Below, piece after piece: positions 8,304 through 30,109 of a stretch of 64,000 nucleotides of DNA. The DNA lies in the NCBI RefSeq assembly GCF_013315695.1, contig NZ_CP054353.1; one strand, given 5' to 3'. The stretch's first letter is position 1; each line of letters begins with the position of its first letter. The position numbers and the translations under genes were made by a program. Under the pieces are notes generated by a model, which was not told the DNA's origin, did no database searches, and saw nothing but the letters and a program-made list of their open reading frames with translations. The DNA is from Escherichia coli (GTDB lineage: Bacteria; Pseudomonadota; Gammaproteobacteria; Enterobacterales; Enterobacteriaceae).

Positions 8304-9818
<1,515 letters not shown>

Positions 9819-10081
9819 CTACGCTCCTGAATCTTAAAGACAACGGCGGTGGCTACAGATAGAATTGCAAGCTTTCGTAACTCATGTCCGCTGTTGCGAT
9901 GACTTCGTGTTAATCTTAACGTTATTACGGCATTGGCACGTCAGAACAAAATCTGAGAGGTGAATCCGTTGAGTATAATTATCTTAGCGACGATTTCGAC
10001 GACTCAAGAGAATAAATGACGTTTAAGCCATGAAACAAGCTAAAATCCTGCAAAAGACGAGTTTTTACGGGCGTATTTAAA

Positions 10082-14055: not shown

Positions 14056-15075
14056 TCAGAAGTCAGCTTTCAGGACTACTCGGTAGCGAGCTTTACCATC
14101 GCGTACATGCTGAATGGCGTCGTTAATTTTCGACATCGGGAACAGTTCGGTTGTCGGCGCAACCTTGCTGCGGGCGGCAAAGCGCATCAGCTTTCGCAGC
14201 TCATAAGGCGTGCCGGTAGCAGAACCAGAGATGCTGCGGTCGCCCGCAATTAACGTAAAGGCCGGAACAGACAGCGGCGTGAGAACCGCACCGACCGTAT
14301 GGAAATTACCGCCATAGGTCAGCGCCTCAAAATAAGGCTGCCAGTCGAGGCTGACGTTCACAGTATTGATAATGAGATCAAACTGCCCCGACAGGGCTTT
14401 CAGTGCCTGCGGATCGCGGCTATTCACCACTTTATCGGTACCCATCGCCAGTACTTCCTGCTCTTTCGCCGGATTAGAACTAAAGGCCGTCACCTCGCAT
14501 CCCATTGCGTGCAGAAGTTTTATAGCGATATGCCCCAGCCCGCCAATACCAATTACCCCAACGCGGCTGGTAGCAGTGATATGGTGCATCAACAGTGGTT
14601 TAAAGACCGTGATACCGCCGCACAACAGCGGCCCGGCGGACTCGATATCAATATTTTCTGGCAGTGGAATCACCCATTGCCAGTCCGCACGCAACTTCTC
14701 GGCAAAGCCACCGCGATTCATAATCGTCGGCACCGCACCTTGCTCGCAGTTGATCTGATTACCGCTAATACAGGCGTCGCAGTGACCACAGCTACGCGCC
14801 GTCCAGCCAATCCCGACACGCTGACCGACCTGCAAACCTTTATCCTGCGCGGCGCTCCCGAGTGCCACCACGCGCCCAATCACCTCATGCCCGGCAACCA
14901 GCGGATATTGTGAAAATCCCCATTCGTTATCGATCATCGACAGATCGGAATGACAAATCCCGCAGTAATCCACCTGCACTTCAACATCTTGTGGCTTCAG
15001 CTCACCGGGATCGTACTCATAAACTTCCAGTTCGCCGCCCGCTTCTTTTGCGGCATAGCTTTTTATCATCGACAT
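14056..15075 (-). CDS. ahr: NADPH-dependent aldehyde reductase, zinc-type alcohol dehydrogenase family
   Basis: Zn-binding GHE and CGxCxxC motifs plus GxGxxG Rossmann motif; start set at MSMIKSYAA (339 aa). Confidence 0.9.
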
Positions 15076-15270
15076 TTTTGGGTCCTTCTCTGGTGTTGTT
15101 TGGGAAGTGTAGAGCATGGCAGGGCGGGGTGCCTGGAGTGTGACAAAGGTTACATATCGCTGAGTGTAATGCTGAAAATTTCAGCACTTAGCGAGGTGGG
15201 TGCAAGCTGGCGCTTGCATGGTGGCGTGCGACAGGTATAATCCACAACGTTTTCCGCATACCTCTTCAGT

Positions 15271-15355
15271 GCCGAAGTGGCGAAATCGGTAGACGCAGTT
15301 GATTCAAAATCAACCGTAGAAATACGTGCCGGTTCGAGTCCGGCCTTCGGCACCA
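15271..15355 (+). tRNA. leuX: tRNA-Leu (anticodon CAA)
   Basis: 85-nt sequence gccgaagtggcgaaatcggtagacgc...ggcacca with long variable arm and CAA anticodon loop, ending in CCA. Confidence 0.92.
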
Positions 15356-15357
15356 TC
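15313..15357 (+). repeat. Direct repeat copy 1 (leuX 3-prime end, attachment-site core)
   Basis: 45 bp identical except one mismatch to 25708-25752. Confidence 0.8.
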
Positions 15358-15889
15358 TACATTTTCCTCTTGAAAAACAAGCGATTAAGTAAATTATTTT
15401 ACCTTTTTTGCCTATCTAATCTTCACTGATTCTTTCCCGTATAAAAGCCACTGTGATTGTTAATGGCTTTGGTATGTTAGCACGCAGTGGCAAGTAGTTA
15501 CCAGGCTCAACCTTGTACTGCATACGCCAGTATGCCCCCCTTTGAAGCAGGAAGACGCGCCGCCGTCTCTAAACCTATGCCAAGCACTTTTAACCGTTCC
15601 ACACTTAGTTCGGCGTTCCGTTCAAGCCTGTCGTGGTGACTTACCACGAATAAACAAGCAAATTCGCGGTATGGTATTCGTTACGAGAGCGGTTAACTGA
15701 CAAGACTCCTGTGATACGCCTAAGGTGCTTAAATTGATGCGTCCAACATGGCACAAAAGGCGGTCTATCGTTTAATTTTGCTCCATACATCAACTGGCAT
15801 TGCCAGCTGTATGGGGCTTGGTCTGCTGGTTCCGATGAACGGATTAAATTGCTAAGATGCAGACCATAAGCCATAAGGCGGAGATAAGT

Positions 15890-17098
15890 ATGAAATCTGT
15901 AGAACTATTTGCCGGTGCTGGTGGCTTGGCTATGGGTTGCGAAATTGCTGGTTTTGAGCATCTTGCAGTCGTTGAATGGGATAAATGGGCCTGTGATACC
16001 GTTAGAGAGAACAAAAAGAATGGCTTTCCGCTGTTGTCTGATTGGGATCTTTTTGAGGGTGATGTAAGAGAATTTGATTGGTCGAAAATCCCTAAAGGGA
16101 TTGACCTTCTTGCGGGAGGGCCACCTTGCCAGCCATTTTCAATCGGTGGTAAGCACAAGGCTAATTCTGATTCGCGGGACATGTTTCCAGCGACAGCAGA
16201 AGCGATCAGGCAAATTCGCCCTAAGGCTTTCATCGTCGAGAATGTGAAAGGCTTAACACGGGCAACCTTTGCGAGCTATTTCCAGTACATCCAGTTACAG
16301 CTTGAGTTTCCAGAAGTAGCCCCGCGAAATGGCGAAGACTGGAGCGAGCATTTAAAACGCTTGCAGGAAGAAAAAACCAGTGGAAAGAACAAAGGGAGAG
16401 GGCTGACGTATAACGTTCTGGCTACGTTAGTCAATGCAGCAGACTACGGCATCCCACAAAAACGTGAGCGTGTCTTCATTGTTGGCTTCCGCGATGATCT
16501 TGAAATTGAGTGGTCGTTCCCTAAACCGACACACAGTTATGATGCACTCGTTTATGATCAGTGGGTTACTGGTGATTACTGGAAACGACATGGTTTAGAA
16601 ATGCCAACTGTTCCAAGCCAGATGGTTAACCGTATCGCAAAATTGCGTAAAAATCCTCCCGATACACTTCCGTGGAAAACTGTTCGAGATGCAATCGCGG
16701 ATTTGCCAGATCCTGAAACAAAGGCGGCAAAGATGATCCGGAATCATGCGTTCCAGGCGGGGGCACGAACTTATCCCGGTCATACCGGAAGCCCCTTAGA
16801 TCTGCCAGCTAAAACGCTCAAAGCAGGTGCTCATGGCGTTCCTGGGGGCGAGAACATGCTTGTTCGTGATGATGGCTCAGTACGCTATTTTACTGTGCGA
16901 GAAAGTGCCAGAATTCAAACATTTCCCGATAGTTATCGTTTTCACGGGAGTTGGACTGAAACTATGAGGCAGTTAGGTAACGCTGTGCCGGTTCATTTGG
17001 CGTATTGCGTTGCCAGCAGTGTAGCGGAAAAGCTGCTGACCTCTGAAATTGGGAACATCCTTAAGCAGGGTGGCAATTATAAAAGGGCTTCTGCATGA
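15890..17098 (+). CDS. DNA (cytosine-5)-methyltransferase, Type II R-M modification subunit
   Basis: Motif I FAGAGG, motif IV GGPPCQPFS, motif VI ENVKGL; start set at MKSVELF with GGAG RBS. Confidence 0.88.
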   Translation: MKSVELFAGAGGLAMGCEIAGFEHLAVVEWDKWACDTVRENKKNGFPLLSDWDLFEGDVREFDWSKIPKGIDLLAGGPPCQPFSIGGKHKANSDSRDMFPATAEAIRQIRPKAFIVENVKGLTRATFASYFQYIQLQLEFPEVAPRNGEDWSEHLKRLQEEKTSGKNKGRGLTYNVLATLVNAADYGIPQKRERVFIVGFRDDLEIEWSFPKPTHSYDALVYDQWVTGDYWKRHGLEMPTVPSQMVNRIAKLRKNPPDTLPWKTVRDAIADLPDPETKAAKMIRNHAFQAGARTYPGHTGSPLDLPAKTLKAGAHGVPGGENMLVRDDGSVRYFTVRESARIQTFPDSYRFHGSWTETMRQLGNAVPVHLAYCVASSVAEKLLTSEIGNILKQGGNYKRASA

Positions 17099-17745
17099 CA
17101 GGAAAGGTCATACCATTTAATCCACTTGATAAACAAAATTTAGGTGCCAGCGTTGCGGAAGCCTTATTGAGCAAAGATGCTCATCCTCTGGAGGAGTTAA
17201 CCTCATTTCAAGGAGCAGGGATTTACGCAATTTATTACACTGGCGATCATCCTGCTTATAGGCAACTGGCAGAACTGAATCGTGACGGGCAATTTCGATT
17301 GCCTATCTACGTGGGTAAGGCCGTCCCAGCAGGGGCGAGAATGGGGCTTACCAACCCTGATAAGGTTGGTAACGTTCTGTTTAGGCGCTTGAAAGAACAT
17401 GCAGAAAGTATTCGCGCAGCGGAAAATCTTTCGATTGAAGATTTTTATTGTCGATTTTTGGTTGTTGATGACATCTGGATCCCATTGGGAGAATCGCTGG
17501 TTATCTCTCGCTTTAAACCGATTTGGAATTCGTCTATTGATGGTTTCGGTAATCATGACCCAGGTAAGCATCGCTACACTGGTTTACGTCCTCGCTGGGA
17601 CTTTATGCACCCGGGGAGAGGATGGGCTCAAAATTTACGTGAGCGTGATGAAACTGTGGATGAACTCATTCGTGATTCTATACAGTATCTTCAGAATTTA
17701 CCGCCTTGCTTGGCTCAGAAATTTATCGAAGCTGAAGGCGATTAA
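17095..17745 (+). CDS. GIY-YIG family restriction endonuclease (Eco29kI-like)
   Basis: GIYAIYY ... YVGKA motifs; 216 aa; start overlaps the methyltransferase stop (ATGA). Confidence 0.6.
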   Translation: MTGKVIPFNPLDKQNLGASVAEALLSKDAHPLEELTSFQGAGIYAIYYTGDHPAYRQLAELNRDGQFRLPIYVGKAVPAGARMGLTNPDKVGNVLFRRLKEHAESIRAAENLSIEDFYCRFLVVDDIWIPLGESLVISRFKPIWNSSIDGFGNHDPGKHRYTGLRPRWDFMHPGRGWAQNLRERDETVDELIRDSIQYLQNLPPCLAQKFIEAEGD

Positions 17746-17866
17746 TCAGCAAATGATCATCGGAGGCATCTGCCTCCGAATGTGATTAAGCCTTGGTTGA
17801 CAAAGTGGTTGCTTAAAACATTAAGCGTTAATTTTCTGGCCCTCTACCTTCTGACGTGCATAATTC

Positions 17867-18442
17867 TCAAATATCAGGGAGTTGCAAGAACGACTTAAGT
17901 CGGTAGAAGGTTGCTTTGCTGATCTCTAACCTATCCTGGACCGCTGCTGGTGGTAATCCTCGTGCTAATAACTCACGTACTTGTTCAACGGTTGCTTTGA
18001 TCGGTCTGCCGCAATGCTTACCTTCCGACTGAGCTCGTTTGATTCCTGCGGCTCTACGCTCTGCGATTAGGTCTTTTTCCAGGCTGGCAAGTCCTGCCAT
18101 CATAGTGAGCATGGCTTTACCCACTGGTGTTGAAAGATCAAACCCCTCTCGCAAGCTGACAACCTTCACACCCTTCATTTGCAACATTTCAACAGTAGAT
18201 AGTACATCGATAGTGTTACGTCCCAAGCGGTTTATAGCAATCACGATCAGCGTATCGCCTTCTCGCACATAATTGAGTAGTTCAGCAAACCCTGGACGCT
18301 CTCCTGCCTTGATTGCACCACTCACCGCTTCATCACTAAACCAGCGAGTTACGCTATAACCAGCATCGGCTATCTGCTTCTTCTGGTTTTCAACGTTTTG
18401 ATCGCTGGTGGAAACTCGCACATATCCGATCACAGTTGTCAT
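17867..18442 (-). CDS. serine recombinase (resolvase/invertase family)
   Basis: N-terminal GYVRVSTSDQ catalytic serine motif and C-terminal HTH; 191 aa. Confidence 0.88.
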   Translation of the reverse strand: MTTVIGYVRVSTSDQNVENQKKQIADAGYSVTRWFSDEAVSGAIKAGERPGFAELLNYVREGDTLIVIAINRLGRNTIDVLSTVEMLQMKGVKVVSLREGFDLSTPVGKAMLTMMAGLASLEKDLIAERRAAGIKRAQSEGKHCGRPIKATVEQVRELLARGLPPAAVQDRLEISKATFYRLKSFLQLPDI

Positions 18443-18449
18443 GATGTTC

Positions 18450-18580
18450 TCTAAGTCTCAAAAGGTAGTGTCAAAATAATAGCTGTCTCAAAATTAAAGA
18501 TCAACCTTTTGAGACAAGGCGAAGCCGCATTCTGTCGTTGCGTCGGTGTGGTCTTATAAGGAGATGGTTTTGAGACTGGA
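18450..18580. promoter_or_regulatory. Candidate recombination (res-like) site upstream of the serine recombinase
   Basis: Four copies of GTCTCAAAA: two direct (18456, 18485) and two inverted (18507, 18568). Confidence 0.35.
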
Positions 18581-18681
18581 TAGCAGCGGTTTAGGAATAG
18601 AGGCTTGGAACGAGAGTATGGGGAGAATGGAAATTCGGAATGGGCGGTCAACTTATTGGGCGTGATTGCTCACGCCTTTGT

Positions 18682-19033
18682 TTAGATCTCAGAACACAGG
18701 CTCAGCGTGTAGAGTGCCGTTTCACCATCGTTGTTAGTTGGGCGCATAACGAAAACTGGATCACTGCCGTTGTCGATGTAAGTAACCGCTATTCCACCGT
18801 CTGGGGTGGCGTACATCTTCGCAATACTTTTCTCTCCAATGAAACCCAGCCGCCAGGTTTTACCACCCATGCTCACTTTCATGATTTTGTCCCGCACATC
18901 GAGGCGAGTTTCGACAGACGATTTTTGGCTACCAGAATCTATCTGCCCTTCCTGAATGGCCTTACAGGTGAATGTGGTTGCACTTGAGGCGAAGGGGGGG
19001 GACGAGCAGCGCCGCGAGAATCAATTTTTTCAT
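18682..19033 (-). pseudogene. Small secreted protein gene disrupted by a frameshift in a G8/C8 homopolymer
   Basis: ATG at 19033 encodes signal-peptide-like MKKLILAALLVPP, then the frame breaks at the C8 run (18994-19001); removing one C fuses it to ORF 18682..18897. Confidence 0.5.
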
Positions 19034-19213
19034 GGTCTTCCTTTTGGATACGAGTTAAGAGTTCGTCGGGAGACATTATAAAATCTTTAATTGATAAAAA
19101 CGATCAATTTCTATCGTATTGATCGATAAAATTGATCATAATTGAAACTATAAATCCTACGCTCAGTCGTTATGGATGAGGTTTTTTATAAGAGAACTCA
19201 ACGGGATGATGTT

Positions 19214-19420
19214 ATGAAAAGAGCAATGATGGTGATGTGTGGGCTACTGTTTTCACAGTTGGTAGCAGCAGGGCAGATCACAATGATCGATCCCCAGCAG
19301 GATACGACGGAGAATGGCAAGACGCTTTGCACCTACGAGAACAGCCAGTATGTTTTTACCTACGTCACTAAAGGGCAGTGCCCCTATGCAAAGACTTTCG
19401 ATACTCAGGATTCAGAGTAG
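19214..19420 (+). CDS. small putative secreted protein (about 68 aa, two Cys)
   Basis: Internal start MKRAMMVMCGLLFSQLVAAG gives a signal-peptide-like N-terminus. Confidence 0.4.
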   Translation: MKRAMMVMCGLLFSQLVAAGQITMIDPQQDTTENGKTLCTYENSQYVFTYVTKGQCPYAKTFDTQDSE

Positions 19421-20490
19421 AGGCTGCATAAAATAGGAAGTGTTGTTTAACTTCATGAAAAGACAGGTGTGCTTAGCACAAGCCTCCAACGGATTGATTG
19501 TTAATTCTTCTGATAACGGCACAGCGCAAGGCTTTACGCAAAGAGAGTGATAGTTACTATCTTGATGACTATGGCAATTTTCCCCCTGTAACAACGGCAT
19601 TCATTACCTGCTAATTACCAGCGGATTACGCGCCAGTTTGATGGGAATTAACTCAGGGTTATTGCATGGGGTAGTGTGGAGTGAGCAGGGTGACAGTCTA
19701 CCGTTGGGTGAAGGGCTGATAGGTAATCGACGCGAAGCGCCGGAACCATACTGTTATGCGCTGGCCTTGGTGCCAGGCTCACGCCGCGCATGAAAGATAG
19801 CCATTACAGGAGAGATAATTTTTGACAAGTTACCTTCATCAAAGGTGCTTCTCCTGTATAAATGCTTGTTATGCTCGCTATGCTCCCAAACACAAACCCA
19901 TTAAACCCAACTAACTTAAGGTTAGTTAATTGGTTTTCTCTCTCTCTTGGGCTACTACCGCCCAAACTTTGCTTAATGCCATACAGCGACTACGCCGCCA
20001 TTAACAACACTCCACAATGATCCAATGGCATTCCTGCTTAATGTCATCCACCGATCTTGATTAGCCACCAACCAAACAACCACCCTAAATCTTTTAGGCT
20101 GTCTGTTTATCTGGTGCAAGGTAGCTATGACATTACCATACGTGCAAACATCCCAAGCCAATCATCACTGATTGGCTCGTGCTGATGCACTTCAGTGCAG
20201 AGAGAGAATCTCTCTACTATTATAGCGTATTTAGTAGGTCCCTGTATTTAAAGGAAAAATTAGGGTGAAAATCGCCATTGTTCACTTTTTTTCTCAAGAA
20301 ATGGCGAGATGCTGTTCGTAAATGGGAGGCATGGCTGTCTTCTCTGGTGGCAAGTTCTACCACAAATTTTGATTGACAGCAACCATCTATTTCTGGTATA
20401 AGAAGCACTAATTGCAAAGCAAAAATGCAACTAATTGAAAATGACCAAAAATATTTCATGAGATCACCGTTTGGGTATTGACAAACGTTA

Positions 20491-20781
20491 GTGGTCTATG
20501 GTATTCTTAATACTAAGAAGGGGAGAAAACCTTCTGAACTTTTCAGCCCTGGGCAGGGTAACTGCCTGGGGCTTTTTGCATCCAAAATCCGAAGGAGGCC
20601 ATTATTGAAGTATTACAGCAGTGACCAGATTTTTAATGACCTGGTGAGCGGCGAAGTGAAACGCCACGTTATTTACGCATCTATGCAAGCAGCAAAATCG
20701 AGAGGGTATACAGACCGAATGGAAATGTTTCAATCTGCAATTATCCGTTATGACCAACACCGAAGGGAGAACACCAACTAA
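20491..20781 (+). CDS. small hypothetical protein; true start may be the TTG at about 20608 after the AAGGAGG RBS
   Basis: ORF 10 nt upstream of the 306-aa ORF; strong RBS aaggagg at about 20593. Confidence 0.4.
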   Translation: MVYGILNTKKGRKPSELFSPGQGNCLGLFASKIRRRPLLKYYSSDQIFNDLVSGEVKRHVIYASMQAAKSRGYTDRMEMFQSAIIRYDQHRRENTN

Positions 20782-20790
20782 GGAGGAACA

Positions 20791-21711
20791 TTGATTCAAG
20801 CATACGAAGACGGCTATTTTTACAGAGATACCCCGCACCACGATCACTGCCCGCTTTCAGCATTTTCCAGACCATCCCAGCAATTCATCGTTATTGATAA
20901 TGTTCTGTACGTTGTCGAAGTGGAAAGTGGTGAAATTCTTCACTACGACTCGACAGAGTATTTGCTTGATGGTGGCATTGTTCAGGATCTGCATTTGAGT
21001 TACTCGACAGCAGACACCGCCAAATCAAAACAGGCTCACCGTGAATACGCTAATAAGCTGGGCGACCTTCCAGGGAATGCAGCCTATAACGGGATCAAGG
21101 AATACGCAGACGTATTAAGCAAGCCAGATTTCAAGAAAGTATTTGCATTGTGTCAGGAAGTAGATAGACGCAATGTAGTGTTTATAAAACGTGCGGATTT
21201 GAGCATAATACTGAACACCACGCCGGATCATCTCAATCGTGTATTATCTGCTCTTGAACGTAAGCACTACATCAAAGTTGATAAAGCTGAACACCAGAAA
21301 GGAGTATTAAAACTGTGGGTTAATCCTTCGTTTGTCTGGAAGGGTGATTCAGCTAACCGCTACTTATCTGGATATTTGCAGGGCTTCCCAATCTTGGAAC
21401 GTAAACGCTCCACAAAACGTTCTGACGTGCTCGACACGCTCACGGCTGCTGCAATGGTTGCCTTTGATACCTGGCACATTGAACACGGTTATAAGGCCAA
21501 TCAGCCTCATTCTAATGAATGGTATGCAGAGATCACGATGTACGAAAACGCCTACGGCGAAGGGGTGAGGCTTGCAGCAGAAAATAAGACATTGAACAAG
21601 TTATTGAACCCGGCAACATCTGAGGGGGATTTCGTTTATGAGCTATTCACTACGGCACAATACAGGGAATACCTGCAAACATTGGCAAAACAAGTAAGGA
21701 GATTACACTGA
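20791..21711 (+). CDS. hypothetical 306-aa protein with possible winged-helix segment
   Basis: Long ORF with GGAGG RBS; no recognisable catalytic motif. Confidence 0.6.
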   Translation: MIQAYEDGYFYRDTPHHDHCPLSAFSRPSQQFIVIDNVLYVVEVESGEILHYDSTEYLLDGGIVQDLHLSYSTADTAKSKQAHREYANKLGDLPGNAAYNGIKEYADVLSKPDFKKVFALCQEVDRRNVVFIKRADLSIILNTTPDHLNRVLSALERKHYIKVDKAEHQKGVLKLWVNPSFVWKGDSANRYLSGYLQGFPILERKRSTKRSDVLDTLTAAAMVAFDTWHIEHGYKANQPHSNEWYAEITMYENAYGEGVRLAAENKTLNKLLNPATSEGDFVYELFTTAQYREYLQTLAKQVRRLH

Positions 21712-21995
21712 ACCAATGTTTTGTAATAAAGAAGCCAGCACAATACTTATTTGAACTAAATTAAGCAACTCTCATACACACCGCTCTTTTGGTGAGTTAT
21801 TTATTACTATCTTTAAGGTGATGAGTGTTTATACTGTATTAAATTATTATAAATAAGGGGATGGTGTATGATTACAGCTCTTTATTGGTGTTTGTTCTTT
21901 CAGTTTGCGCTGTATTTTTTGTCTAAATTAAATTTAAATTGAAAATTAGCCCTGATCTTGAAATAGTTCAGGGCTGGAATTTCTAAAAAATAACA

Positions 21996-22955
21996 TCAGT
22001 GTGCTTTTAGTTCATCTTTAGCTAATGAGTCATAGAGTATTTTTGTGAGCGGAGACTCTAAATAATCATCACTAAGTAGTTTAATAAAATGCTTTTGGGA
22101 TTCTTTTGTTTTTACGAGCAATTGTGTGCCGTCTTCACTTACAATTAAAACTGTTGAAAGATAGGTATGCTTGCTTACATAATCGATAATTTCTGGCACA
22201 TCAATTTTCCCCAGTACAGGTGAGTGTTTGGCAATTTTGGCAAGCTTCCTTGAGAAAGAAATTTCTTTTGCACTCTTCTCAAGGTGAGTAAGATCTTCGA
22301 TAAGCAATGAAGCTTTCAATGCTTCCAAAGCCACCGTTGCTTGAGCTTCAATAACCTGATGGAACTGCATCGTTATTTCTAAAGTTTTTTGATTTTTTAT
22401 CAGGAATTCGTCGTCTATAAGAGCCAAGTCATAATTATAATCTAATCGGAACACTTGGGTTGGCAATTCTTTTAAATACCCGTCTGCGTCTGGTATCAAG
22501 TTAAACAATTTTCGGCTTTGCTCAAAAACCATGAGGTTTGTTTTGTTCTTATACAATGACAAACACTTATTGTTGCCTCTTAACTGAATTATTATCCCTT
22601 TCACGTCAGTAAATTTATTATTTAAATCATAATAATCCTGAGAGTTAGGCGGTATGGCTATTGCATTTTTTATAAAATCAAACTCTTTTGGATGTTCTTC
22701 ATAATCAAATGCAAACAAGGCATTTTTTCTATCATCAAAATTCGAAAGGAGAGGAATGGTTAAATCCTCATTTGTCACAATGTCGTCGTAAAGCCTAATT
22801 TTGAATCCTTCAACAATTTTTGGTAAAGCTTCAGCATCTATTTTAGATAATTTTAATTCATAATTATCTTCAGTTTTAACTATAAAGATAATTCTTATAC
22901 CTGAGAAATTATCGAAAATTTCGGTGATTTGATTTTTAAAATTCACAGGGGTCAT
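21996..22955 (-). CDS. 319-aa soluble protein, KwaB-like (candidate Kiwa component)
   Basis: Co-oriented with and overlapping the membrane protein gene; size and order match the Kiwa KwaA-KwaB arrangement. Confidence 0.55.
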   Translation of the reverse strand: MTPVNFKNQITEIFDNFSGIRIIFIVKTEDNYELKLSKIDAEALPKIVEGFKIRLYDDIVTNEDLTIPLLSNFDDRKNALFAFDYEEHPKEFDFIKNAIAIPPNSQDYYDLNNKFTDVKGIIIQLRGNNKCLSLYKNKTNLMVFEQSRKLFNLIPDADGYLKELPTQVFRLDYNYDLALIDDEFLIKNQKTLEITMQFHQVIEAQATVALEALKASLLIEDLTHLEKSAKEISFSRKLAKIAKHSPVLGKIDVPEIIDYVSKHTYLSTVLIVSEDGTQLLVKTKESQKHFIKLLSDDYLESPLTKILYDSLAKDELKAH

Positions 22956-23572
22956 TATTTTTTCCTTGCTATGAAAACGTAGTCATCAAAAAAACTATAG
23001 AATACTTGATCGTCAACAGTCAGCACATCCATCGAGATTGCAATGACGTTTTTTACTTCACCACTTCCTGCATGAGAAATGTTAACTCTATACAACTTAT
23101 AACCGAAAAGCGCCAAAGTAGGATTCGCATAATACTTATCCGTTTTAATGAAAATTAAACCAATAACTACTATTAAGAGAAAGTACGCAATGTTTTTCTG
23201 AGGGTCATCAAAACTGAATCCCATAAAAGGTACTATGTAAGTTGCTAAGAAAGTCAAACTTTCATAGCTCTCACTTTGGCAAGCAGTGATTGTTACACAG
23301 TCAGCATTGTTGACCTTCGTCAATCCTTTAAACCTTCTATAGAAATAAAATGCTATTCCTATAAAAATTAAACAAATTATTGAGATTATGTTGCTGGAAG
23401 CTAATTGATAAAAACCTATAAAATGGCAGGAAGAGCCATAACAAAATGGGATTTTTGCGCTCAAAATGATAATAAAAACAAACAGCAACATTAAAGACAG
23501 TATGTATAGTCCCATCTTGTTGAATGTGCTTTTTCGTTTCATGTTATCCCCCAGTGATGAAATCATAATCAA
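22955..23572 (-). CDS. four-TM membrane protein, KwaA-like (candidate Kiwa component)
   Basis: 205 aa with four hydrophobic helices; AT-rich; stop overlaps start of downstream gene. Confidence 0.6.
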   Translation of the reverse strand: MIMISSLGDNMKRKSTFNKMGLYILSLMLLFVFIIILSAKIPFCYGSSCHFIGFYQLASSNIISIICLIFIGIAFYFYRRFKGLTKVNNADCVTITACQSESYESLTFLATYIVPFMGFSFDDPQKNIAYFLLIVVIGLIFIKTDKYYANPTLALFGYKLYRVNISHAGSGEVKNVIAISMDVLTVDDQVFYSFFDDYVFIARKK

Positions 23573-23826
23573 AACTTGATCATGTGAACATCAAAAGCAT
23601 ACCTTAAAGCACTGGTTTTTTGTACAGCAATCGGCAAATTCATGCGTACTATCGAACTTACAAGAGGACGCATAGTAGATTTTCTGATCCAAATTGCCAT
23701 CATGTACTTTTAATTCATGTAGAGTAGCCAATGAAGTATCAGCAATTACATGATTTTATTGTCTATTTTTTATGTTTTTTTGTAAAACACCAGAAGATTG
23801 AAAAGGGCCAATGAGGCCCCTTGGCG

Positions 23827-24078
23827 TTATTTACGGTTTTTGTTGGATTGAGCCAGCACGGAAGCAGCAAGCTGCTTGGTTAAAGTACTGGAACGTGGAT
23901 TATCCAGCGCCGCAGATGCTTTATGTTCCATTGCACCACTTGTCTGATTTGAGGAACCTTTTTGAGAGAGAGCTGAACCAGCAAGGCTCTTCTGAATTGC
24001 AGATGCGTTGGGGTTGTTTAGGGTTTGTGCTGCGACTGATGCGACTTTACTTGATGTTTGCTTTGAATTGTTAGCCAT
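23827..24078 (-). CDS. small S/A/Q/N-rich protein with internal repeats
   Basis: ORF with repeated KxxASxxAQ-like segments; start set at MANNSK. Confidence 0.35.
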   Translation of the reverse strand: MANNSKQTSSKVASVAAQTLNNPNASAIQKSLAGSALSQKGSSNQTSGAMEHKASAALDNPRSSTLTKQLAASVLAQSNKNRK

Positions 24079-24309
24079 TCTCAACACCTATTCAAGAAGT
24101 GAATTATTGAACATCTTGTATTTAAATCAAGAATGAATACAAGATGTAGTGTTAATGATAATCCTCACCGCTTCGCTGTGCAACGATGAAAAATCTCTTT
24201 ACTGGATAAAACTACAGTTTTAAAAATGTGCGGTATTTCTGCTTTCAAATTGGCTTAATGTGCATACATTTAGATGATACCACTGCGTTTTCTGATCGTT
24301 ATTCGTTCA

Positions 24310-25593
24310 CTATTTATCAGTTTTCTCACGTTGGGGCTCCGTCTCTATCTCTGGGTAACGTAATAGCTCGATGTATGGCTGTAGTTCAATCGGAGATGCT
24401 GCATTCTTGCTGTACGTCTTGAAACTTTCTGTAGAGCCGCGCTCATGACCCAAGAGAAGTGCGATCCGGTCTTCTGTAACTGGTTTTAACTTACCTCGTC
24501 CAACCCCCCCACGATCCAGAATCTGCGCCACTGCATGGCGTAGACTGTGAAAAACTTTCAACTCTGATCCTACTTCCCCCAATGCCTTACGTTTAGCCCT
24601 CGTAAAACGCTGTGAATGCCACGTAGAGCGCTTTCCATCTGCGCGGTCAGCTATCGACGCACGATAGAATAAAAAGCCGTTATGGGGCTTCTCACGCAGC
24701 GACAAAACCAACGGAGTGATCAGGCTATGCACCGGAATAATACGGGCTGCTGATTTGGTCTTCCCCTCCGTCACTTCGAAACATAACACCCCTTCAATCT
24801 CTCGGATGTTGGCTGCACGTAATGAACAAATTTCATTCAGGCGCATACCGCTATACATCCCGATCAGCGTTACATTTTGCATCTCTTCATCATTCGCCAT
24901 CACAGCGAACACCTTCGCCAATTCTCCAGGCTCAAATACTTCATAACTCACCTTGCTACTTTTGGCCTCCAGCGCATGACCGCGCCAGATGTTTTCTTGC
25001 GGTGCATCGTGGTAGCGATTACGGGCCAGATCCCAGATTTGAGCCAGTGCGCTGACATAGTTTTGTATGGTCTGTGGTGCTTTCTCCGTCTTGAGCTGAT
25101 CAAGCCAGCCTGTAACGGTGGTTCGGTTAACGTCACGAAGCTGAACATCACGCTTTTTCAGATGTTCTAAGAGCACTTCAACAGCCTTGTTTGTCTTCGA
25201 TAGCGTAGTGAGTTTGCGCTTCTCGCTGAACTGCAATAGATAAAGATCACGCATTTTCAGGAGGGATGGCACTCCTTGGGATTGGGTATTGCTCATGACA
25301 TGCTGAACAGGTGTTTCATGAACTCGGGCGCTAACTCTGCGTAGCTCTGCAATTGCCTGCTCAATCTTACTCCCTTCTCTTGGTTTGACCTGTTCCCGTA
25401 AACGTATCCATTCAACAGCGATAGCATCTCTGAACAATCGCGCCTGACGTATGTCACTTGTGCCAGTGCTCTTGACGAAGTAGCGCTTGTTGCCAAAAAG
25501 CGAGCGCATGTAAGCTGGAACGGTAATCCTTACCAGATAGTTTCCGCATGGATCTAAAACTAAGTAACGATCTCTCTTGAAACTCATGTTCAC
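24310..25593 (-). CDS. tyrosine-type site-specific integrase
   Basis: C-terminal catalytic region with HSLRH and LLGH motifs; adjacent to the distal direct repeat. Confidence 0.88.
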   Translation of the reverse strand: MNMSFKRDRYLVLDPCGNYLVRITVPAYMRSLFGNKRYFVKSTGTSDIRQARLFRDAIAVEWIRLREQVKPREGSKIEQAIAELRRVSARVHETPVQHVMSNTQSQGVPSLLKMRDLYLLQFSEKRKLTTLSKTNKAVEVLLEHLKKRDVQLRDVNRTTVTGWLDQLKTEKAPQTIQNYVSALAQIWDLARNRYHDAPQENIWRGHALEAKSSKVSYEVFEPGELAKVFAVMANDEEMQNVTLIGMYSGMRLNEICSLRAANIREIEGVLCFEVTEGKTKSAARIIPVHSLITPLVLSLREKPHNGFLFYRASIADRADGKRSTWHSQRFTRAKRKALGEVGSELKVFHSLRHAVAQILDRGGVGRGKLKPVTEDRIALLLGHERGSTESFKTYSKNAASPIELQPYIELLRYPEIETEPQREKTDK

Positions 25594-25707
25594 CCCGGCT
25601 ATTTTGTAAGGGCTTTTACATGGGGAAGTTTCCTGTGTAGATTGTTGGAGCGGCGAATTATTAGCAGTTGATTCAATAGCTTAGATCAGCTTGCTGGACA
25701 AGCGAAC

Positions 25708-25752
25708 ACCGTAGAAATACGTGCCGGTTCGAGCCCGGCCTTCGGCACCATC
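25708..25752 (+). repeat. Direct repeat copy 2 (partial leuX 3-prime end)
   Basis: accgtagaaatacgtgccggttcgagcccggccttcggcaccatc matches tRNA 3-prime end 15313-15357 with one mismatch. Confidence 0.8.
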
Positions 25753-25948
25753 GGAACATCAATAGACGTCAACGGACGTCTTTTTTTGTGCCTAAAATCC
25801 AGTATCCGCAAGGCTTTCCTCGCTTTTTCACTCAACCTAAGTCAACCTGATTCAATCTACATCAACTTACTGATGCGGGTACAACTGCGGGTATTTCCCG
25901 GTTCGATAATGTTTGTACCCACACAGAACCCTTGAAAGGATACTCATC

Positions 25949-27126
25949 ATGGCTCTGAGTGATGTGAAGGTTCGTTCGGCTAAGCCTGAAGCAAAAGCCT
26001 ATAAGCTGACCGACGGTGAAGGCATGGTTTTGCTGGTTCACCCTAACGGCTCCAAATACTGGCGGCTACGTTATCGCTTTGGCGGTAAAGAGAAGATGCT
26101 GGCATTGGGGAAATACCCCGAAGTGTCGTTGGCGGATGCCAGGGCACGCCGGGATGAGGCTCGTAAGCTTTTAGCTAATGGTGTCGATCCCAGTGAAAAC
26201 AAGAAAGCTGTTAAGGTAGAATAGGAACAAGAGGCGATAACGTTTGAAGTAGTCGCCAGAGACTGGCACGCCAGCAATCAGAAGTGGTCGGCATCGCATA
26301 GCGCTCGTGTTTTGAAAAGTCTGGAGGATAATCTCTTTACTGCTATCGGTAAGCGGAACATTGCGGAACTGAAGACGCGGGATCTTCTTGTACCCATTAA
26401 AGCAGTCGAGTCATCCGGGCGGCTCGAAGTTGCCGCCCGTTTACAGCAGCGTACTACCGCGATTATGCGCTTTGCCGTTCAGAGCGGCTTAATCGACTAC
26501 AACCCCGCGCAAGAGATTGCAGGTGCGGTTGCTACGGCGAAAAGACAGCACCGTGCAGCTCTTGAACTGAACCGTATACCTGAATTACTTCATCGCATAG
26601 ATCACTATTCTGGCAGACCGTTAACTCGACTGGCGGTTGAACTCACTTTATTGGTTTTCATCCGTTCGAGCGAGCTGCATTTTGCCCGCTGGTCAGAAGT
26701 AGATTTTGAAACGGCTATGTGGACAATCCCAGGTGAGCGTGAGCAACTGGAAGGAGTCAAGCATTCTCAGCGTGGCTCGAAGATGCGGACACCACACCTT
26801 GTACCTTTGTCGCGGCAGGCCCTAAGTATTTTGGAAAAGATCAAAAGCATGAGCGGAAATTGAGAGCTGATTTTTGTGGGCGATCACGATCCACGTAAGC
26901 CGATGAGTGAGAATACGGTGAACAAGGCTTTGCGCGTAATGGGGTATGACACGAAGGTCGAGGTTTGTGGGCATGGCTTCAGGACGATGGCTTGTAGTTC
27001 GTTGATTGAGTCGGGATTATGGTCGAGGGATGCGGTAGAGCGGCAGATGAGTCACCAGGAGCGTAGCTCTGTGCGAGCCGCTTACATCCATAAGGCGGAA
27101 CATCTTGGGGAGCGTAGGTTGATGTT
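25949..27126 (+). pseudogene. intB: P4-type integrase, fragmented and truncated by IS911
   Basis: N-terminus MALSDVKVRSAKPEAKAYKLTDGEG; reading frame broken into three ORFs; 3-prime end replaced by IS911 left end. Confidence 0.8.
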
Positions 27127-27198
27127 TGAAGTGGCACACTGAATTTGGCCACCTGAACAGAGGTGATATGCTCACCTCAGAACAACACAGGTGCTCCA

Positions 27199-28364
<1,166 letters not shown>

Positions 28365-30109
28365 CCACTTCAAACGGACTGGGAGAACAGGTACAACATG
28401 TGCTGAATGATAATCCCTTCTCCGGTCACCTGTTTATCTTCCGTGGCCGACGGGGTGACACCGTCAAAATTCTTTGGGCTGATGCTGATGGTCTGTGCCT
28501 GTTCACCAAACGCCTGGAGGAAGGCCAGTTTATCTGGCCTGCGGTACGTGACGGCAAGGTATCCATTACCCGCTCGCAACTGGCAATGCTCCTCGATAAG
28601 CTGGACTGGCGTCAGCCAAAAACATCCAGCCGTAACTCACTGACAATGTTGTAAAAAACTCCTGACCGCATTATAAAAACGGTCATGAGTCAGAAATACC
28701 TCATTCGCATCGCAGAGCTGGAAAGGTTGCTCTCTGAGCAGGCTGAAGCCCTCCGTCAGAAAGACCAGCAACTGAGTCTGGTTGAAGAGACGGAAGCCTT
28801 CCTGCGCTCTGCACTGACACGTGCCGAAGAAAAGATCGAAGAAGATGAACGGGAAATAGAACATCTGCGGGCTCAGATAGAAAAACTGCGCCGGATGCTG
28901 TTCGGTACCCGTTCTGAAAAACTGCGTCGTGAAGTTGATCTGGCTGAGGCTCTGCTGAAACAACGTGAACAGGACAGCGATCGTTACAGTGGGCGGGAAG
29001 ACGATCCTCAGGTTCCCCGCCAGTTGCGACAGTCGCGCCATCGTCGTCCGTTACCGGCACACCTTCCCCGTGAAATACACCGCCTGGAGCCAGAAGAAAG
29101 CTGTTGCCCGGAGTGTGGCGGTGAGCTGGATTATCTGGGGGAAGTCAGCGCTGAACAGCTGGAACTGGTGAGCAGTGCCCTGAAAGTGATCCGCACAGAA
29201 CGGGTAAAAAAAGCCTGTACAAAATGTGACTGTATTGTTGAAGCACCGGCGCCGTCCCGCCCGATAGAGCGTGGTATCGCGGGCCCCGGATTACTTGCCC
29301 GCGTGTTAACGGGAAAATACTGCGAACATCTGCCACTGTATCGTCAGAGTGAAATCTTTGCCCGCCAGGGTGTCGAACTGAGCCGGGCCTTACTCTCCAA
29401 CTGGGTTGACGCGTGCTGCCAGTTAATGACACCGGTGAATGATGCCCTGTACCGTTATGTAATGAACACCCGCAAGGTTCACACTGATGACACACCGGTA
29501 AAGGTACTGGCACCGGGTCAGAAAAAGGCGAAAACAGGGCGTATCTGGACGTATGTCCGGGATGATCGCAATGTGGGTTCGTCATCTCCTCCAGCGGTCT
29601 GGTTCGCGTACTCGCCGAACCGGCAGGGGAAACACCCGGAGCAACACCTCCGCCCCTTCCGGGGTATCCTGCAGGCGGATGCGTTCACAGGTTACGACAG
29701 GTTGTTCAGTGCAGAACGTGAAGGTGGTGCACTGACAGAAGTTGCGTGCTGGGCCCATGCCCGGCGAAAAATCCACGATGTATACATCAGCAGCAAAAGT
29801 GCGACGGCAGAAGAAGCCCTGAAGCGAATCAGTGAACTGTACGCCATCGAGGATGAAATACGGGGATTACCGGAGTCAGAGCGTCTTGCCGTCAGGCAGC
29901 AGCGAAGCAAAGTGTTACTGACGTCGCTGCATGAATGGATGGTGGAGAAGAATGGTACGCTGTCGAAAAAATCCAGACTGGGCGAAGCGTTCAGCTATGT
30001 ACTGAATCAGTGGGATGCCCTCTGTTATTACAGTGATGACGGTCTGGCGGAGGCGGATAATAATGCTGCGGAAAGAGCGCTTCGTGCAGTCTGTCTCGGA
30101 AAGAAAAAC

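What the first reader, a model, noticed from the sequence alone, without database searches (positions are those of the whole stretch)
20491..21711. Uncharacterised small-ORF plus 306-aa protein module with a structured leader
The two ORFs are 10 nt apart. The 306-aa protein has no recognisable catalytic motif, only a possible winged-helix segment (LNRVLSALERKHYIKV). Just upstream of a strong RBS (aaggagg) lies a GC-rich hairpin followed by a T-run (gccctgggcagg-gtaa-ctgcctggggc-ttttt, about 20546-20580), suggesting attenuation or termination in the leader. The module lies in the same island as the R-M and Kiwa-like genes and is divergent from the Kiwa-like operon. It could be a novel defence or regulatory module, or a replication initiator with its origin.
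Basis: partly seen in the sequence, partly recalled or inferred. Interest (0 to 1): 0.7.

Follow-up and report, generated by a model that had tools for sequence, protein, structure and literature searches.

The report
Probable replication module of a defence-carrying island
The small ORF, the 306-aa winged-helix protein, their terminator-containing leader and a conserved non-coding block upstream form one conserved backbone module of a roughly 10.4-kb element inserted at the leuX tRNA-Leu gene that carries restriction-modification and Kiwa defence genes; the module is most likely a replication initiator with its DNA target, not a defence system.

Summary
The small ORF starts at TTG 20605 (58 aa), not at 20491. 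It lies 9 nt upstream of a 306-aa winged-helix (wHTH) gene that also starts with TTG. A strong promoter (20478-20507) is followed by two hairpins, the second an intrinsic terminator (20545-20573 plus T5). Both hairpins are conserved with compensatory changes.

The pair sits in a 10.4-kb element bounded by att repeats at leuX. It converges on the Kiwa operon; it is not divergent from it.

The small ORF plus wHTH pair recurs in four main lineages (protein identity down to about 35%). In all of them it follows a 1.2-2.3 kb gene-free region whose roughly 250-nt core (20066-20313) is found only with the wHTH gene. Remote wHTH homologues sit in comparable islands.

In one E. coli island the promoter, leader and small ORF are kept at 84% identity, while both the core and the wHTH gene are replaced by other DNA and a ribbon-helix-helix (RHH) protein plus a helicase-like ATPase.

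Sister lineages are satellite-like islands with capsid genes, or islands carrying Gabija or reverse-transcriptase cargo with a resolvase.

Fold search ranks RepL-type plasmid replication proteins first. No sequence family matches.

Best reading: an origin-binding initiator with its cognate site and an attenuated leader (confidence about 0.45). Nothing supports a defence function.

The parts
15327..15355 (+). attL: the 3' end of tRNA-Leu(CAA) leuX (gene 15271-15355), left boundary of the roughly 10.4-kb element
   Evidence: ARAGORN. The 29-nt repeat occurs twice in the window against 0 expected. Logan contigs of 10,400 and 10,465 nt begin and end in this repeat.
25722..25750 (+). attR: direct repeat of the tRNA 3' end (1 mismatch), right boundary, next to the 427-aa tyrosine integrase (24310-25593, minus strand)
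19780..19950 (.). 5' block of the gene-free region. It is shared with the helicase-type island L033 and partly with L007. It ends in a (TC)n tract of variable length.
   Evidence: 3-7 variable sites per 100 nt among four elements that are about 93% identical overall, against 20-34 in the flanks. blastn matches window 19849-19931 to L033 6564-6653 at 74%. Motifs were read by eye. (TC)n length variation.
20066..20313 (+). 3' core of the gene-free region: the candidate cognate cis site (origin) of the wHTH protein. It contains an A/C-rich hairpin, GTGCAAGGTAGCTATGACA (20114-20132), three GTGCA repeats (20114, 20142, 20195), hairpin GCAC/GTGC (20187-20198), a hairpin with variable stem sequence (20199-20215) followed by the conserved ACTATTATAGCG-TATTTAGTAGGT, and hairpin TCGCCA..TGGCGA (20272-20307).
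   Evidence: An nhmmer profile of the core hits 24 loci, all of them wHTH loci, and not L033. A 25-nt motif recovered 10 metagenome loci; all 6 with enough downstream DNA carry the wHTH gene 610-680 nt downstream. Hairpin statistics: 95.5% of cells paired, covariation 0.268 against 0.140 in shuffles, 0 of 500 shuffles reach it.
20478..20507 (+). Operon promoter, TTGACA-18-(TG)TATTCT
   Evidence: 10 of 12 positions with an extended -10 TG. The -35 is conserved in all clade-A variants, L012 and L033, while the -10 and start region vary.
20516..20535 (+). Leader hairpin 1 (AGAAGG/CCTTCT) with the conserved purine-rich loop GGAGAAAA
   Evidence: Four of 6 pairs changed on both sides. L003 has GGTAG/CTACC with the loop unchanged.
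20545..20578 (+). Leader intrinsic terminator or attenuator: 12-bp stem, 5-nt loop, T5
   Evidence: 100% of cells paired in nine variants. A different GC hairpin plus T6 sits at the same place in L006/L015. Absent in L007 and L009.
20605..20781 (+). Small ORF, 58 aa, TTG start, RBS aaggagg at 20592-20598. A conserved small, probably helical protein of unknown family.
   Evidence: tblastn to L006/L015 gives E 9e-6. In the alignment of seven lineage representatives, M1, Y3, L13, A30, T36 and R38 are invariant. No Pfam, PHROG or PADLOC hit; the only NCBIfam hit (HpnM, E 0.022) is far below its cutoff. Retained at 84% nt identity in L033 although the downstream gene differs.
20791..21711 (+). 306-aa protein, TTG start, RBS aaggagg at 20780-20786. 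Central winged helix at residues about 105-180 (nt 21103-21330). Family hallmarks: SK..HR...N.LGD, VDRRN..F, NP.F.W.G.
   Evidence: 52 homologues, all in Enterobacteriaceae, plus remote ones. Foldseek afdb50 is topped by RepL-domain replication proteins.
21996..23572 (-). kwaB-kwaA (Kiwa) cargo, convergent with the module. Not part of the module.
   Evidence: PADLOC: KwaB E 3.9e-116, KwaA E 1.6e-79. RefSeq annotation.

Best explanation
The module is the replication-initiation unit of a small integrative element, about 10.4 kb, inserted at leuX.

Inferred:
- The 306-aa winged-helix protein is a sequence-specific initiator of RepL-like fold.
- It binds its cognate site, the roughly 250-nt core at 20066-20313, which carries GTGCA repeats, several hairpins and AT-rich stretches.
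- It starts replication of the excised circle there, probably with host helicase and primase.
- Most transcripts from the operon promoter stop at the leader terminator after about 65 nt. This keeps initiator synthesis low, together with TTG start codons on both genes, until an unidentified signal allows read-through. That signal could be a helper phage, an antiterminator acting on the conserved-loop hairpin 1, or the small protein itself.
- The 58-aa protein is a conserved accessory or regulator. Its function does not depend on which initiator follows it.

Shown:
- The anatomy.
- Conservation and covariation of the leader.
- Co-conservation of the two genes.
- Strict linkage and joint replacement of the core and the wHTH gene.

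Not shown: DNA binding, origin function, and the read-through trigger.
For: 1. Protein and site behave as a cognate pair.
- The core profile hits every wHTH locus held (24 loci) and nothing else.
- A core motif pulled 10 metagenome loci. All 6 with enough downstream DNA carry the gene.

2. Module swap in E. coli XYEH3934 (L033).
- The promoter -35, hairpin 1, terminator, RBS and small ORF are 84% identical to the window.
- The core is absent there. The wHTH gene is replaced by a 54-aa RHH protein plus a 482-aa ATPase with DEAD/ResIII matches.
- This is the pattern seen when replication modules are exchanged.

3. Fold. After the family's own member, Foldseek against AFDB50 is dominated by 'Plasmid replication protein RepL domain' entries (ranks 2, 4, 5, 6, 9, 11, and others; E 4e-9 to 1e-4; up to 300 aligned columns) and by RepA or replication proteins.
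- Remote homologues give weak PHROG hits to a DnaD-like loader and to a replication initiation protein.

4. Context.
- The module and an integrase are the only parts common to all lineages.
- In the capsid-gene islands L006 and L007/L016 it is the only non-structural protein above 300 aa apart from the integrase, and no primase or helicase was found there.
- In the cargo islands it travels with a roughly 190-aa resolvase, a typical multimer-resolution function of circular replicons.

5. A repressor role is unlikely, because the gene is co-transcribed with capsid genes in the sister lineages.

6. The leader terminator is conserved with covariation.
Against: - No Rep family matches by sequence. 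Pfam RepL PF05732 hits 1 of 32 members at E 0.016. P1 RepL and P1 RepA give hhalign E 0.22-0.41.
- Foldseek TM-scores are low (0.25-0.37). The model is confident only for residues about 70-200. MarR/Crp proteins also appear among the hits.
- The window core has no classical iteron array and no DnaA box.
- The family is absent from 72,556 plasmids and 50,697 phage records. An autonomous replicon might be expected to show up there.
- No circular contig was found.
- The L009 island has its own DUF5906 helicase-type gene.
- G-U-only departures in the core hairpins suggest a single-stranded + strand form (RNA or ssDNA), which a simple double-stranded origin does not need.
Confidence: 0.45

Rival explanations
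1. The protein is a transcription factor of the element. It binds the conserved upstream region to activate or autoregulate element genes, for example excision or late genes. The core is then a regulatory region or long 5' leader rather than an origin.
For: - The only sequence-level matches are transcription-factor HTH families: HTH_Crp_2 in 15 of 32 members, plus weak MarR matches.
- PDB fold hits are MarR-like.
- The core lies just upstream of two promoters.
- The core hairpins carry G-U pairs valid only on the mRNA strand. This fits a transcribed regulatory leader.
Against: - The protein is about twice the length of MarR proteins, with conserved N- and C-terminal regions.
- The position is taken by an RHH protein plus a helicase-like ATPase in L033. 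That is not what replaces a plain regulator.
- RepL-type proteins outrank the far more numerous MarR proteins in AFDB50.
- A master repressor would not be co-transcribed with capsid genes.
Confidence: 0.25
2. The module sets packaging specificity. The wHTH protein acts like a small terminase or redirecting factor and recognises a pac/cos-like site in the upstream region, so that a helper phage packages the element.
For: - Sister lineages are satellite-like, with a major head protein and a tape-measure-like gene but no portal or terminase.
- Small terminases use (w)HTH domains and act on nearby cognate sites (established knowledge).
- The module sits at the head of the operon that contains the capsid gene.
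- The L033 replacement (RHH plus ATPase) could be read as a TerS/TerL-like pair.
Against: - No terminase family matches any of these proteins.
- The core has no similarity to any phage record, whereas satellite cos sites usually mimic the helper's.
- The window element and the Gabija and DRT islands have no capsid genes, yet keep the module together with a resolvase.
- The ATPase matches DEAD/ResIII, not terminase.
Confidence: 0.1
3. The upstream region is an origin of transfer used by a helper conjugative element, and the wHTH protein is a relaxosome accessory factor, in the manner of MobI or MpsB.
For: - The architecture is a hairpin whose stem covaries, followed directly by a conserved single-strand motif (CTATTATA(TA)TAGC.GATTT). 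This resembles recognition sites of HUH relaxases.
- G-T-tolerant, single-strand hairpins.
- Islands that carry only an oriT are reported to be common (bioRxiv 10.64898/2026.01.13.699239).
Against: - Similarity to the R388 nic region is no better than shuffled sequence.
- No match of the core or the protein in 72,556 plasmids.
- No relaxase in any lineage.
- Capsid-gene sister lineages point to phage-mediated rather than conjugative transfer.
Confidence: 0.07
4. The pair is a new anti-phage defence or toxin-antitoxin module riding in the defence island.
For: It lies between R-M and Kiwa genes. It is a small gene plus a larger gene.
Against: - No PADLOC hit.
- The pair is invariant backbone while the defence cargo changes between lineages.
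- It is tied to a large cis-acting non-coding block.
- There are no enzymatic or effector domains.
Confidence: 0.03

Closest known systems
RepL-type plasmid replication proteins (Pfam PF05732, InterPro 'Plasmid replication protein RepL')
   Same: - Best fold-level matches: Foldseek E down to 4e-9, up to 300 aligned columns.
- A single winged helix flanked by helices.
- Size 200-300 aa.
- An initiator encoded next to its cis site.
   Different: - No significant sequence match (1 of 32 members at E 0.016).
- Found only in integrated islands, never on plasmids.
- Preceded by a conserved small ORF and a terminator-containing leader.
Satellite replication modules: PLE RepA (RepA_N family) with its non-coding-region origin; SaPI/PICI Pri-Rep-ori
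   Same: - An element-specific initiator plus a cognate origin in a non-coding region of an integrase-bearing, helper-dependent island.
- Modules are exchangeable between related islands (established knowledge).
   Different: - No RepA_N, primase or helicase domain.
- No iteron pairs flanking an AT-rich stretch in the window.
- Helper dependence is not shown.
Phage P1 lytic replicon (P53-kilA-repL, oriL inside repL)
   Same: A repressible promoter drives an upstream gene and then a roughly 280-aa wHTH-type initiator used for episomal burst replication (annotation).
   Different: - Profile-profile comparison is not significant (E 0.41).
- The P1 origin lies inside the gene, whereas the linked cis block here lies upstream.
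- kilA (266 aa) is unrelated to the 58-aa ORF.
Leader-terminator control: rep attenuation in pT181/pIP501, and phage N/nut or Q/qut antitermination
   Same: A strong promoter, a short leader with a functional hairpin, then an intrinsic terminator just before the first RBS.
   Different: - No antisense promoter was detected.
- No boxA or known nut/qut motif.
- No Rfam family.
- The trigger for read-through is unknown.
- The terminator is missing in two lineages.
MarR/Crp-family transcription factors
   Same: A winged helix with a weak HTH_Crp_2 or MarR profile match. RefSeq and UniRef name the protein this way.
   Different: - Twice the length.
- No MarR dimerisation helices and no cNMP domain.
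- Family-specific conserved motifs lie outside the HTH.

Membership tests
RepL plasmid replication proteins (PF05732) | Significant match to the RepL profile | tested here: not met
   No match for the window protein at E <= 10. One of 32 family members matches, at E 0.016.
RepL plasmid replication proteins (PF05732) | RepL-like fold | tested here: inconclusive
   Foldseek afdb50 puts RepL-domain proteins at ranks 2, 4, 5, 6, 9, 11 and others (E 4e-9 to 1e-4). TM-scores are only 0.25-0.37 and model pLDDT is 67.7.
RepL plasmid replication proteins (PF05732) | Supports replication from a nearby origin | not testable with these tools
   Needs a replication assay.
P1 RepL family (PF26868) | Profile similarity to P1 RepL and relatives | tested here: not met
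   hhalign E 0.22 against the single sequence and 0.41 profile against profile.
Iteron-type initiators (Rep_3/RepE/pi/P1 RepA) | Rep_3-type profile and two winged-helix domains | tested here: not met
   No Pfam match. Only one confident winged helix in the model. hhalign against P1 RepA gives E 0.31.
Iteron-type initiators (Rep_3/RepE/pi/P1 RepA) | Array of three or more direct repeats (iterons), an AT-rich region and a DnaA box next to the gene | tested here: inconclusive
   The window has only a 2-copy 20-nt repeat, three GTGCA sites and no DnaA box. L006 has three repeats of about 23 nt and L030 has two of about 55 nt.
MarR family regulators | MarR/MarR_2 profile; homodimer of about 140-160 aa | tested here: not met
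   No member matches at E <= 0.001 and 4-5 of 32 match at E <= 0.1. The protein is 306 aa with conserved extra regions.
Crp/Fnr family | C-terminal HTH_Crp_2 plus an N-terminal cyclic-nucleotide-binding domain | tested here: not met
   Only a 35-residue HTH_Crp_2 match (E 1.8e-4). No cNMP domain.
Intrinsic terminator / transcription attenuator | GC-rich stem-loop followed by a U-run, between promoter and RBS | tested here: met
   Conserved, with all cells paired, in nine variants.
Intrinsic terminator / transcription attenuator | Regulated read-through | not testable with these tools
   Needs Term-seq, a Northern blot or reporter fusions.
Known anti-phage defence systems (PADLOC) | Match of either protein to a defence-system model | tested here: not met
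   No families at E <= 0.1 for either protein.
PICI/SaPI Pri-Rep module | Primase and/or helicase domains in the initiator | tested here: not met
   No such domain in the wHTH protein.
Phage satellite (host element) | Integrase and att sites; genes that hijack a helper virion | tested here: inconclusive
   Integrase and att are present. The window element has no capsid-related gene. Sister lineages L006, L007/L016 and L033 have a major head protein and a tape-measure-like gene.
Known RNA families (Rfam 15) | Covariance-model match in the leader or the gene-free region | tested here: not met
   Only the tRNA matched in 15000-26500 at E <= 1.

The most novel reading that the evidence does not exclude
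The module could be the defining core of an undescribed family of small helper-dependent integrative elements in Enterobacteriaceae and Vibrionaceae. Some members carry only defence cargo; others carry a capsid gene but no portal or terminase. In this reading a new initiator family acts on a structured origin whose hairpins function as single-stranded + strand nucleic acid (RNA or ssDNA), and a conserved-loop leader hairpin plus terminator makes initiator expression depend on antitermination supplied by a helper phage.
Probability: 0.25. Interest if true: 0.75.

Novelty: new variant of a known kind. Interest (0 to 1): 0.55.

Why it matters
Defence genes such as Kiwa, R-M, Gabija and the reverse-transcriptase systems spread on small islands whose own biology is mostly unknown. 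This module is the one non-integrase function shared by a set of such islands and by related capsid-encoding satellite-like islands. It is therefore the handle for learning how they are maintained, amplified and moved.

If it is an initiator-origin pair, it adds a new replicon type for Enterobacteriaceae, which could be useful as a compatible inducible vector. It would also explain how a 10-kb island with no transfer genes can be amplified for hitchhiking.

The conserved terminator-containing leader gives a direct, testable readout for whatever activates these islands.

Tried and rejected
- Rfam found nothing in the element beyond the tRNA.
- A single large structured RNA in the gene-free region was rejected. 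RNAalifold keeps only local hairpins, although both strands fold better than shuffles (z = -4.4 and -6.2).
- The resemblance of 'hairpin + TATTATATATAGC' to the R388 nic site was a lead from memory. The R388 sequence was verified, but local alignment scores equal those of shuffled sequence. Rejected.
- cos/pac or oriT mimicry of known phages or plasmids: no blastn hit for the core.
- There is no DnaA box in the region.
- Similarity to P1 RepL and P1 RepA is not significant.
- Profile search against PDB sequences gave only marginal MarR/Crp HTH hits.
- Evidence for a circular episome: element-length Logan contigs end in the att repeat, which an assembly break at a repeat explains equally well. 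No other contig has a terminal overlap.
- Long-range pairing between the (TC)n tract (19932-19948) and hairpin 1 (pair I7) was dropped, because the tract is a length-variable microsatellite.
- IMG/VR scans with the protein profile and with the core motif found nothing.
- The genome-contig scan gave only 3 loci.
- tblastn with the L033 ATPase gave only 23%-identity hits to hypothetical proteins of T4-like phages.
It has no evidential value and should be ignored.
Full report
**Setting.** The window is E. coli chromosome around leuX. tRNA-Leu(CAA) lies at 15271-15355. The region 20400-21800 is at least 99% identical in six of 5,426 complete E. coli genomes, five of them over its full length, and is more distant or partial in two more, always on the chromosome.

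The finding lies inside a 10.4-kb element. The element is bounded by a 29-nt direct repeat of the tRNA 3' end at 15327-15355 and 25722-25750. Logan contigs of 10,400 and 10,465 nt start and stop in that repeat.

Gene order in the element:
- Eco29kI-type methyltransferase and endonuclease (15857-17745, +).
- A 191-aa serine recombinase (17867-18442, -).
- A frameshifted hypothetical gene.
- A small secreted-looking protein (19172-19420, +).
- A 1.18-kb gene-free region.
- The small ORF and the 306-aa gene.
- kwaB-kwaA (21996-23572, -; PADLOC E 3.9e-116 and 1.6e-79).
- An 85-aa hypothetical gene.
- A 427-aa tyrosine integrase (24310-25593, -).

The module therefore converges on Kiwa. It is not divergent from it.

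**Checking the observation.** The 306-aa ORF (TTG 20791 to 21711) and the upstream ORF ending at 20781 are present.

The realistic start of the small ORF is TTG 20605 (58 aa), 6 nt after the RBS aaggagg (20592-20598). The longer GTG-20491 version would run through the promoter -10 and the leader hairpins.

A consensus-like promoter, TTGACA-18-(TG)TATTCT, sits at 20478-20507. An intrinsic-terminator-like hairpin sits at 20545-20573 and is followed by TTTTT. The leader folds into two hairpins at -35.9 kcal/mol, z = -2.5.

Across nine distinct leaders from related loci:
- 96.9% of cells pair.
- Five pairs carry changes on both sides (0 of 500 shuffles reach this).
- The terminator helix pairs in every sequence.
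- Hairpin 1 swaps its stem (GAAGG/CCTTC to GGTAG/CTACC in L003) while keeping its loop GGAGAAA(A).
- The terminator's U-G and G-U pairs are valid only on the + strand. This argues for an RNA element rather than a DNA palindrome.

L006 and L015, whose protein is 54% identical, have an unrelated GC hairpin plus T6 at the same place. L007 and L009 have short leaders with no terminator. The structured leader is real and functional, but it is not universal.

**The protein.** Sequence searches give little:
- Pfam gives only a 35-residue HTH_Crp_2 match (E 1.8e-4).
- PHROGs, NCBIfam and PADLOC give nothing.
- tblastn finds nothing in 50,697 phage or 72,556 plasmid records.

The family is small. There are 52 proteins in the 5.8-billion-sequence set, all from Enterobacteriaceae and mostly 78-88% identical. 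Only 13 of 1.84 billion cluster representatives score at E <= 0.001.

More distant members (P0050 54%, P0053 40%, P0055 37%) and remote ones (P0058-P0064) share three motifs: TGEI, SK..HR...N.LGD, and VDRRN..F...L...L.....L.R.L..L..K.YI...K..K...NP.F.W.G.

AlphaFold with a 32-sequence alignment gives pLDDT 67.7, confident for residues about 70-200. It shows a canonical winged helix at about 105-180.

Fold searches:
- Foldseek against AFDB50 is more telling. After the family's own member, the list is led by 'Plasmid replication protein RepL domain-containing protein' entries (ranks 2, 4, 5, 6, 9, 11, 19, 24, 28, 36, 42, 43, 49; E 4e-9 to 1e-4; up to 300 aligned columns). RepA and replication-protein entries follow at ranks 22, 23, 30, 37, 44, 45, 48. 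MarR proteins are far more numerous in that library (my knowledge of the library, not measured here), yet rank lower.
- TM-scores are low (0.25-0.37).
- Pfam RepL is matched by only one of 32 members, at E 0.016.
- P1 RepL (PF26868) and P1 RepA show no significant profile similarity.

Membership of any known Rep family is therefore not established. The resemblance is at the level of fold and annotation enrichment only.

**Co-conservation and context.** In every lineage a small ORF directly precedes the wHTH gene: 58 aa in the window clade and L012, 63 aa in L006/L015, 65-66 aa in L007/L016 and L009. The small proteins align, with invariant M1, Y3, L13, A30, T36 and R38.

In each of these lineages the pair follows a long gene-free region: 1.18 kb in the window, 2.27 kb in L006, 1.4 kb in L007 and 1.34 kb in L009. 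The remote homologue in L030 also follows a region of about 1.6 kb that holds only a 43-aa ORF.

The host islands differ:
- L006 and L015, L007 and L016: integrase-bearing islands of about 13 kb with a major head protein (phrog_29) and a 595-625-aa tape-measure-like protein, but no portal or terminase. These look like satellites.
- L009: an integrase, a resolvase, a DUF5906 helicase-type gene and an endonuclease VII-like gene.
- The remote homologue P0061 (Photobacterium): between a resolvase, a Gabija-like OLD-plus-UvrD pair and a large serine recombinase.
- P0064: next to two reverse-transcriptase genes, a resolvase and an integrase.

The module and an integrase are the only constants. The defence genes are interchangeable cargo.

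**The upstream region is part of the module.** Among four elements that are about 93% identical overall, 19700-20200 has 3-7 variable sites per 100 nt, against 20-34 in its flanks.

A core of about 250 nt (20066-20313) aligns across all four lineages. A profile of the core finds 24 loci, all of them wHTH loci.

A 25-nt core motif recovered 10 metagenome contigs. All six with enough downstream DNA carry the wHTH gene 610-680 nt downstream.

The core has no match in phages, plasmids or Rfam.

It holds:
- An A/C-rich hairpin.
- Three GTGCA sites. GTGCAA is the only non-trivial hexamer present at least twice in all five upstream regions examined.
- Three conserved hairpins, with 95.5% of cells paired, four pairs changed on both sides, and a covariation score of 0.268 against 0.140 in shuffles (0 of 500 shuffles reach it).

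One hairpin changes its whole stem between lineages (AGAGAGA/TCTCTCT, AGCTAC/GTAGCT, ACTCT/AGAGT). It is followed by the conserved CTATTATA(TA)TAGC.GATTTACTAAGT.

All 14 cells that depart from Watson-Crick pairing and still form a standard pair are G-U on the + strand. None is A-C. This hints that the hairpins act in single-stranded + strand form (RNA or ssDNA). The four lineages provide only a handful of independent events, so the hint is weak. No global fold is conserved.

**The decisive comparison.** E. coli XYEH3934 carries a satellite-like island at tRNA-Thr (L033). Its promoter -35, hairpin 1, terminator, RBS and small ORF are 84% identical to window 20478-20792. It also shares part of the 5' block (window 19849-19931).

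However, the core is absent from L033. The wHTH gene is replaced by a 54-aa ribbon-helix-helix protein and a 482-aa ATPase with DEAD/ResIII matches (E 2.4e-5 and 2e-4).

Two segments on either side of a conserved promoter-leader-small-ORF cassette have thus been exchanged together. This is what is expected of a protein and its cognate cis site. A helicase-like protein at the same position points to DNA replication. The ATPase itself is uncharacterised.

**Interpretation.** The best-supported model has four parts:
- The wHTH protein is an origin-binding initiator of RepL-like fold.
- The core is its origin or origin-proximal binding region.
- The 58-aa protein is an accessory or regulator that does not depend on the initiator type.
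- The leader terminator, together with TTG starts on both genes, limits initiator synthesis until some signal permits read-through.

The frequent company of a small resolvase fits a circular replicating intermediate.

A repressor role is unlikely, because the gene heads the operon containing capsid genes in the sister lineages.

Points against the model:
- No sequence-level Rep membership.
- No iteron array or DnaA box in the window.
- Absence from plasmid and phage collections.
- No circular contig.

Rivals, in order of weight:
- A transcription factor acting on a regulatory leader.
- A packaging-specificity factor with a pac-like site.
- An oriT with an accessory protein. The remembered similarity to the R388 nic site was checked and is no better than chance.
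- A defence module, which has no support.

**Novelty and verdict.** I found no paper describing this protein family or these islands in three targeted searches. General frameworks do exist for satellites and for islands that carry only an oriT (for example bioRxiv 10.64898/2026.01.13.699239).

I rate the finding as a new variant of a known kind: an uncharacterised initiator-like family with a linked cis block and an attenuated leader, forming the backbone of a little-known group of defence-carrying and satellite-like islands. The function still needs an experiment. Confidence in the replication reading is about 0.45.

Noticed in passing
L006 4917-17830; L007/L016; L033 5136-14273: Sister islands carry an integrase, this module (or the RHH plus ATPase variant), a major head protein (phrog_29) and a 595-625-aa tape-measure/TolA-like protein. 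They have no portal or terminase. This satellite-like layout fits none of P4, PICI, cfPICI or PLE as I know them.
   Followed up: partly
L030 2796-13739 (Photobacterium sp. J15); L031 2624-11441: Remote homologues of the 306-aa protein sit in islands with a roughly 190-aa resolvase and an integrase or large serine recombinase. The cargo there is a Gabija-like OLD-plus-UvrD pair or two reverse-transcriptase genes. L030 has two copies of a roughly 55-nt repeat, each with a hairpin, upstream of the gene (9673-9740 and 9815-9870).
   Followed up: partly
window 19780-19950: The 5' block of the gene-free region is shared with the helicase-type island L033 and partly with L007 (gcgcatgaaag..., atgctcgct, acacaaacc, ttaaggtta.ttaatt). 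Its function is therefore independent of the initiator type. It could be a packaging or transfer site, or a promoter.
   Followed up: partly
window 19936-19948: A (TC)n microsatellite varies in length between otherwise near-identical elements: five repeats here, four in L002 and L005, three in L003.
   Followed up: partly
window 20497-20515: The -10 hexamer and the first transcribed bases differ completely among element variants, while the -35 and the terminator are conserved. A second promoter-like site, TTGACA-18-TATAAG, lies at 20373-20402 (read by eye).
   Followed up: no
window 18640-19040, minus strand: The 116-aa hypothetical gene that is intact in related elements is frameshifted here, next to a G-run at about 18993-19002. 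RefSeq flags it as a pseudogene in the identical strain EcPF7.
   Followed up: no
window 19172-19420; L006 7295-7525 (minus strand); L015 7203-7439 (minus strand): A small protein that looks secreted (phrog_4641) flanks the gene-free region in several lineages, but in opposite orientation relative to the module.
   Followed up: no
window 25750-30200: A second island follows in tandem at the duplicated att site. In the identical strain EcPF7 the annotation there shows a tyrosine integrase pseudogene and fragments of IS3, IS66 and IS110.
   Followed up: no
window 1-1000 and 22001-24000: GC content is markedly low: 0.30 at 1-1000, and 0.33-0.36 over the Kiwa genes, against about 0.5 elsewhere.
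   Followed up: no
L012 161-163: In the lineage with 66% protein identity, the small ORF has CTG where the others have the TTG start, at the same distance from the RBS.
   Followed up: no
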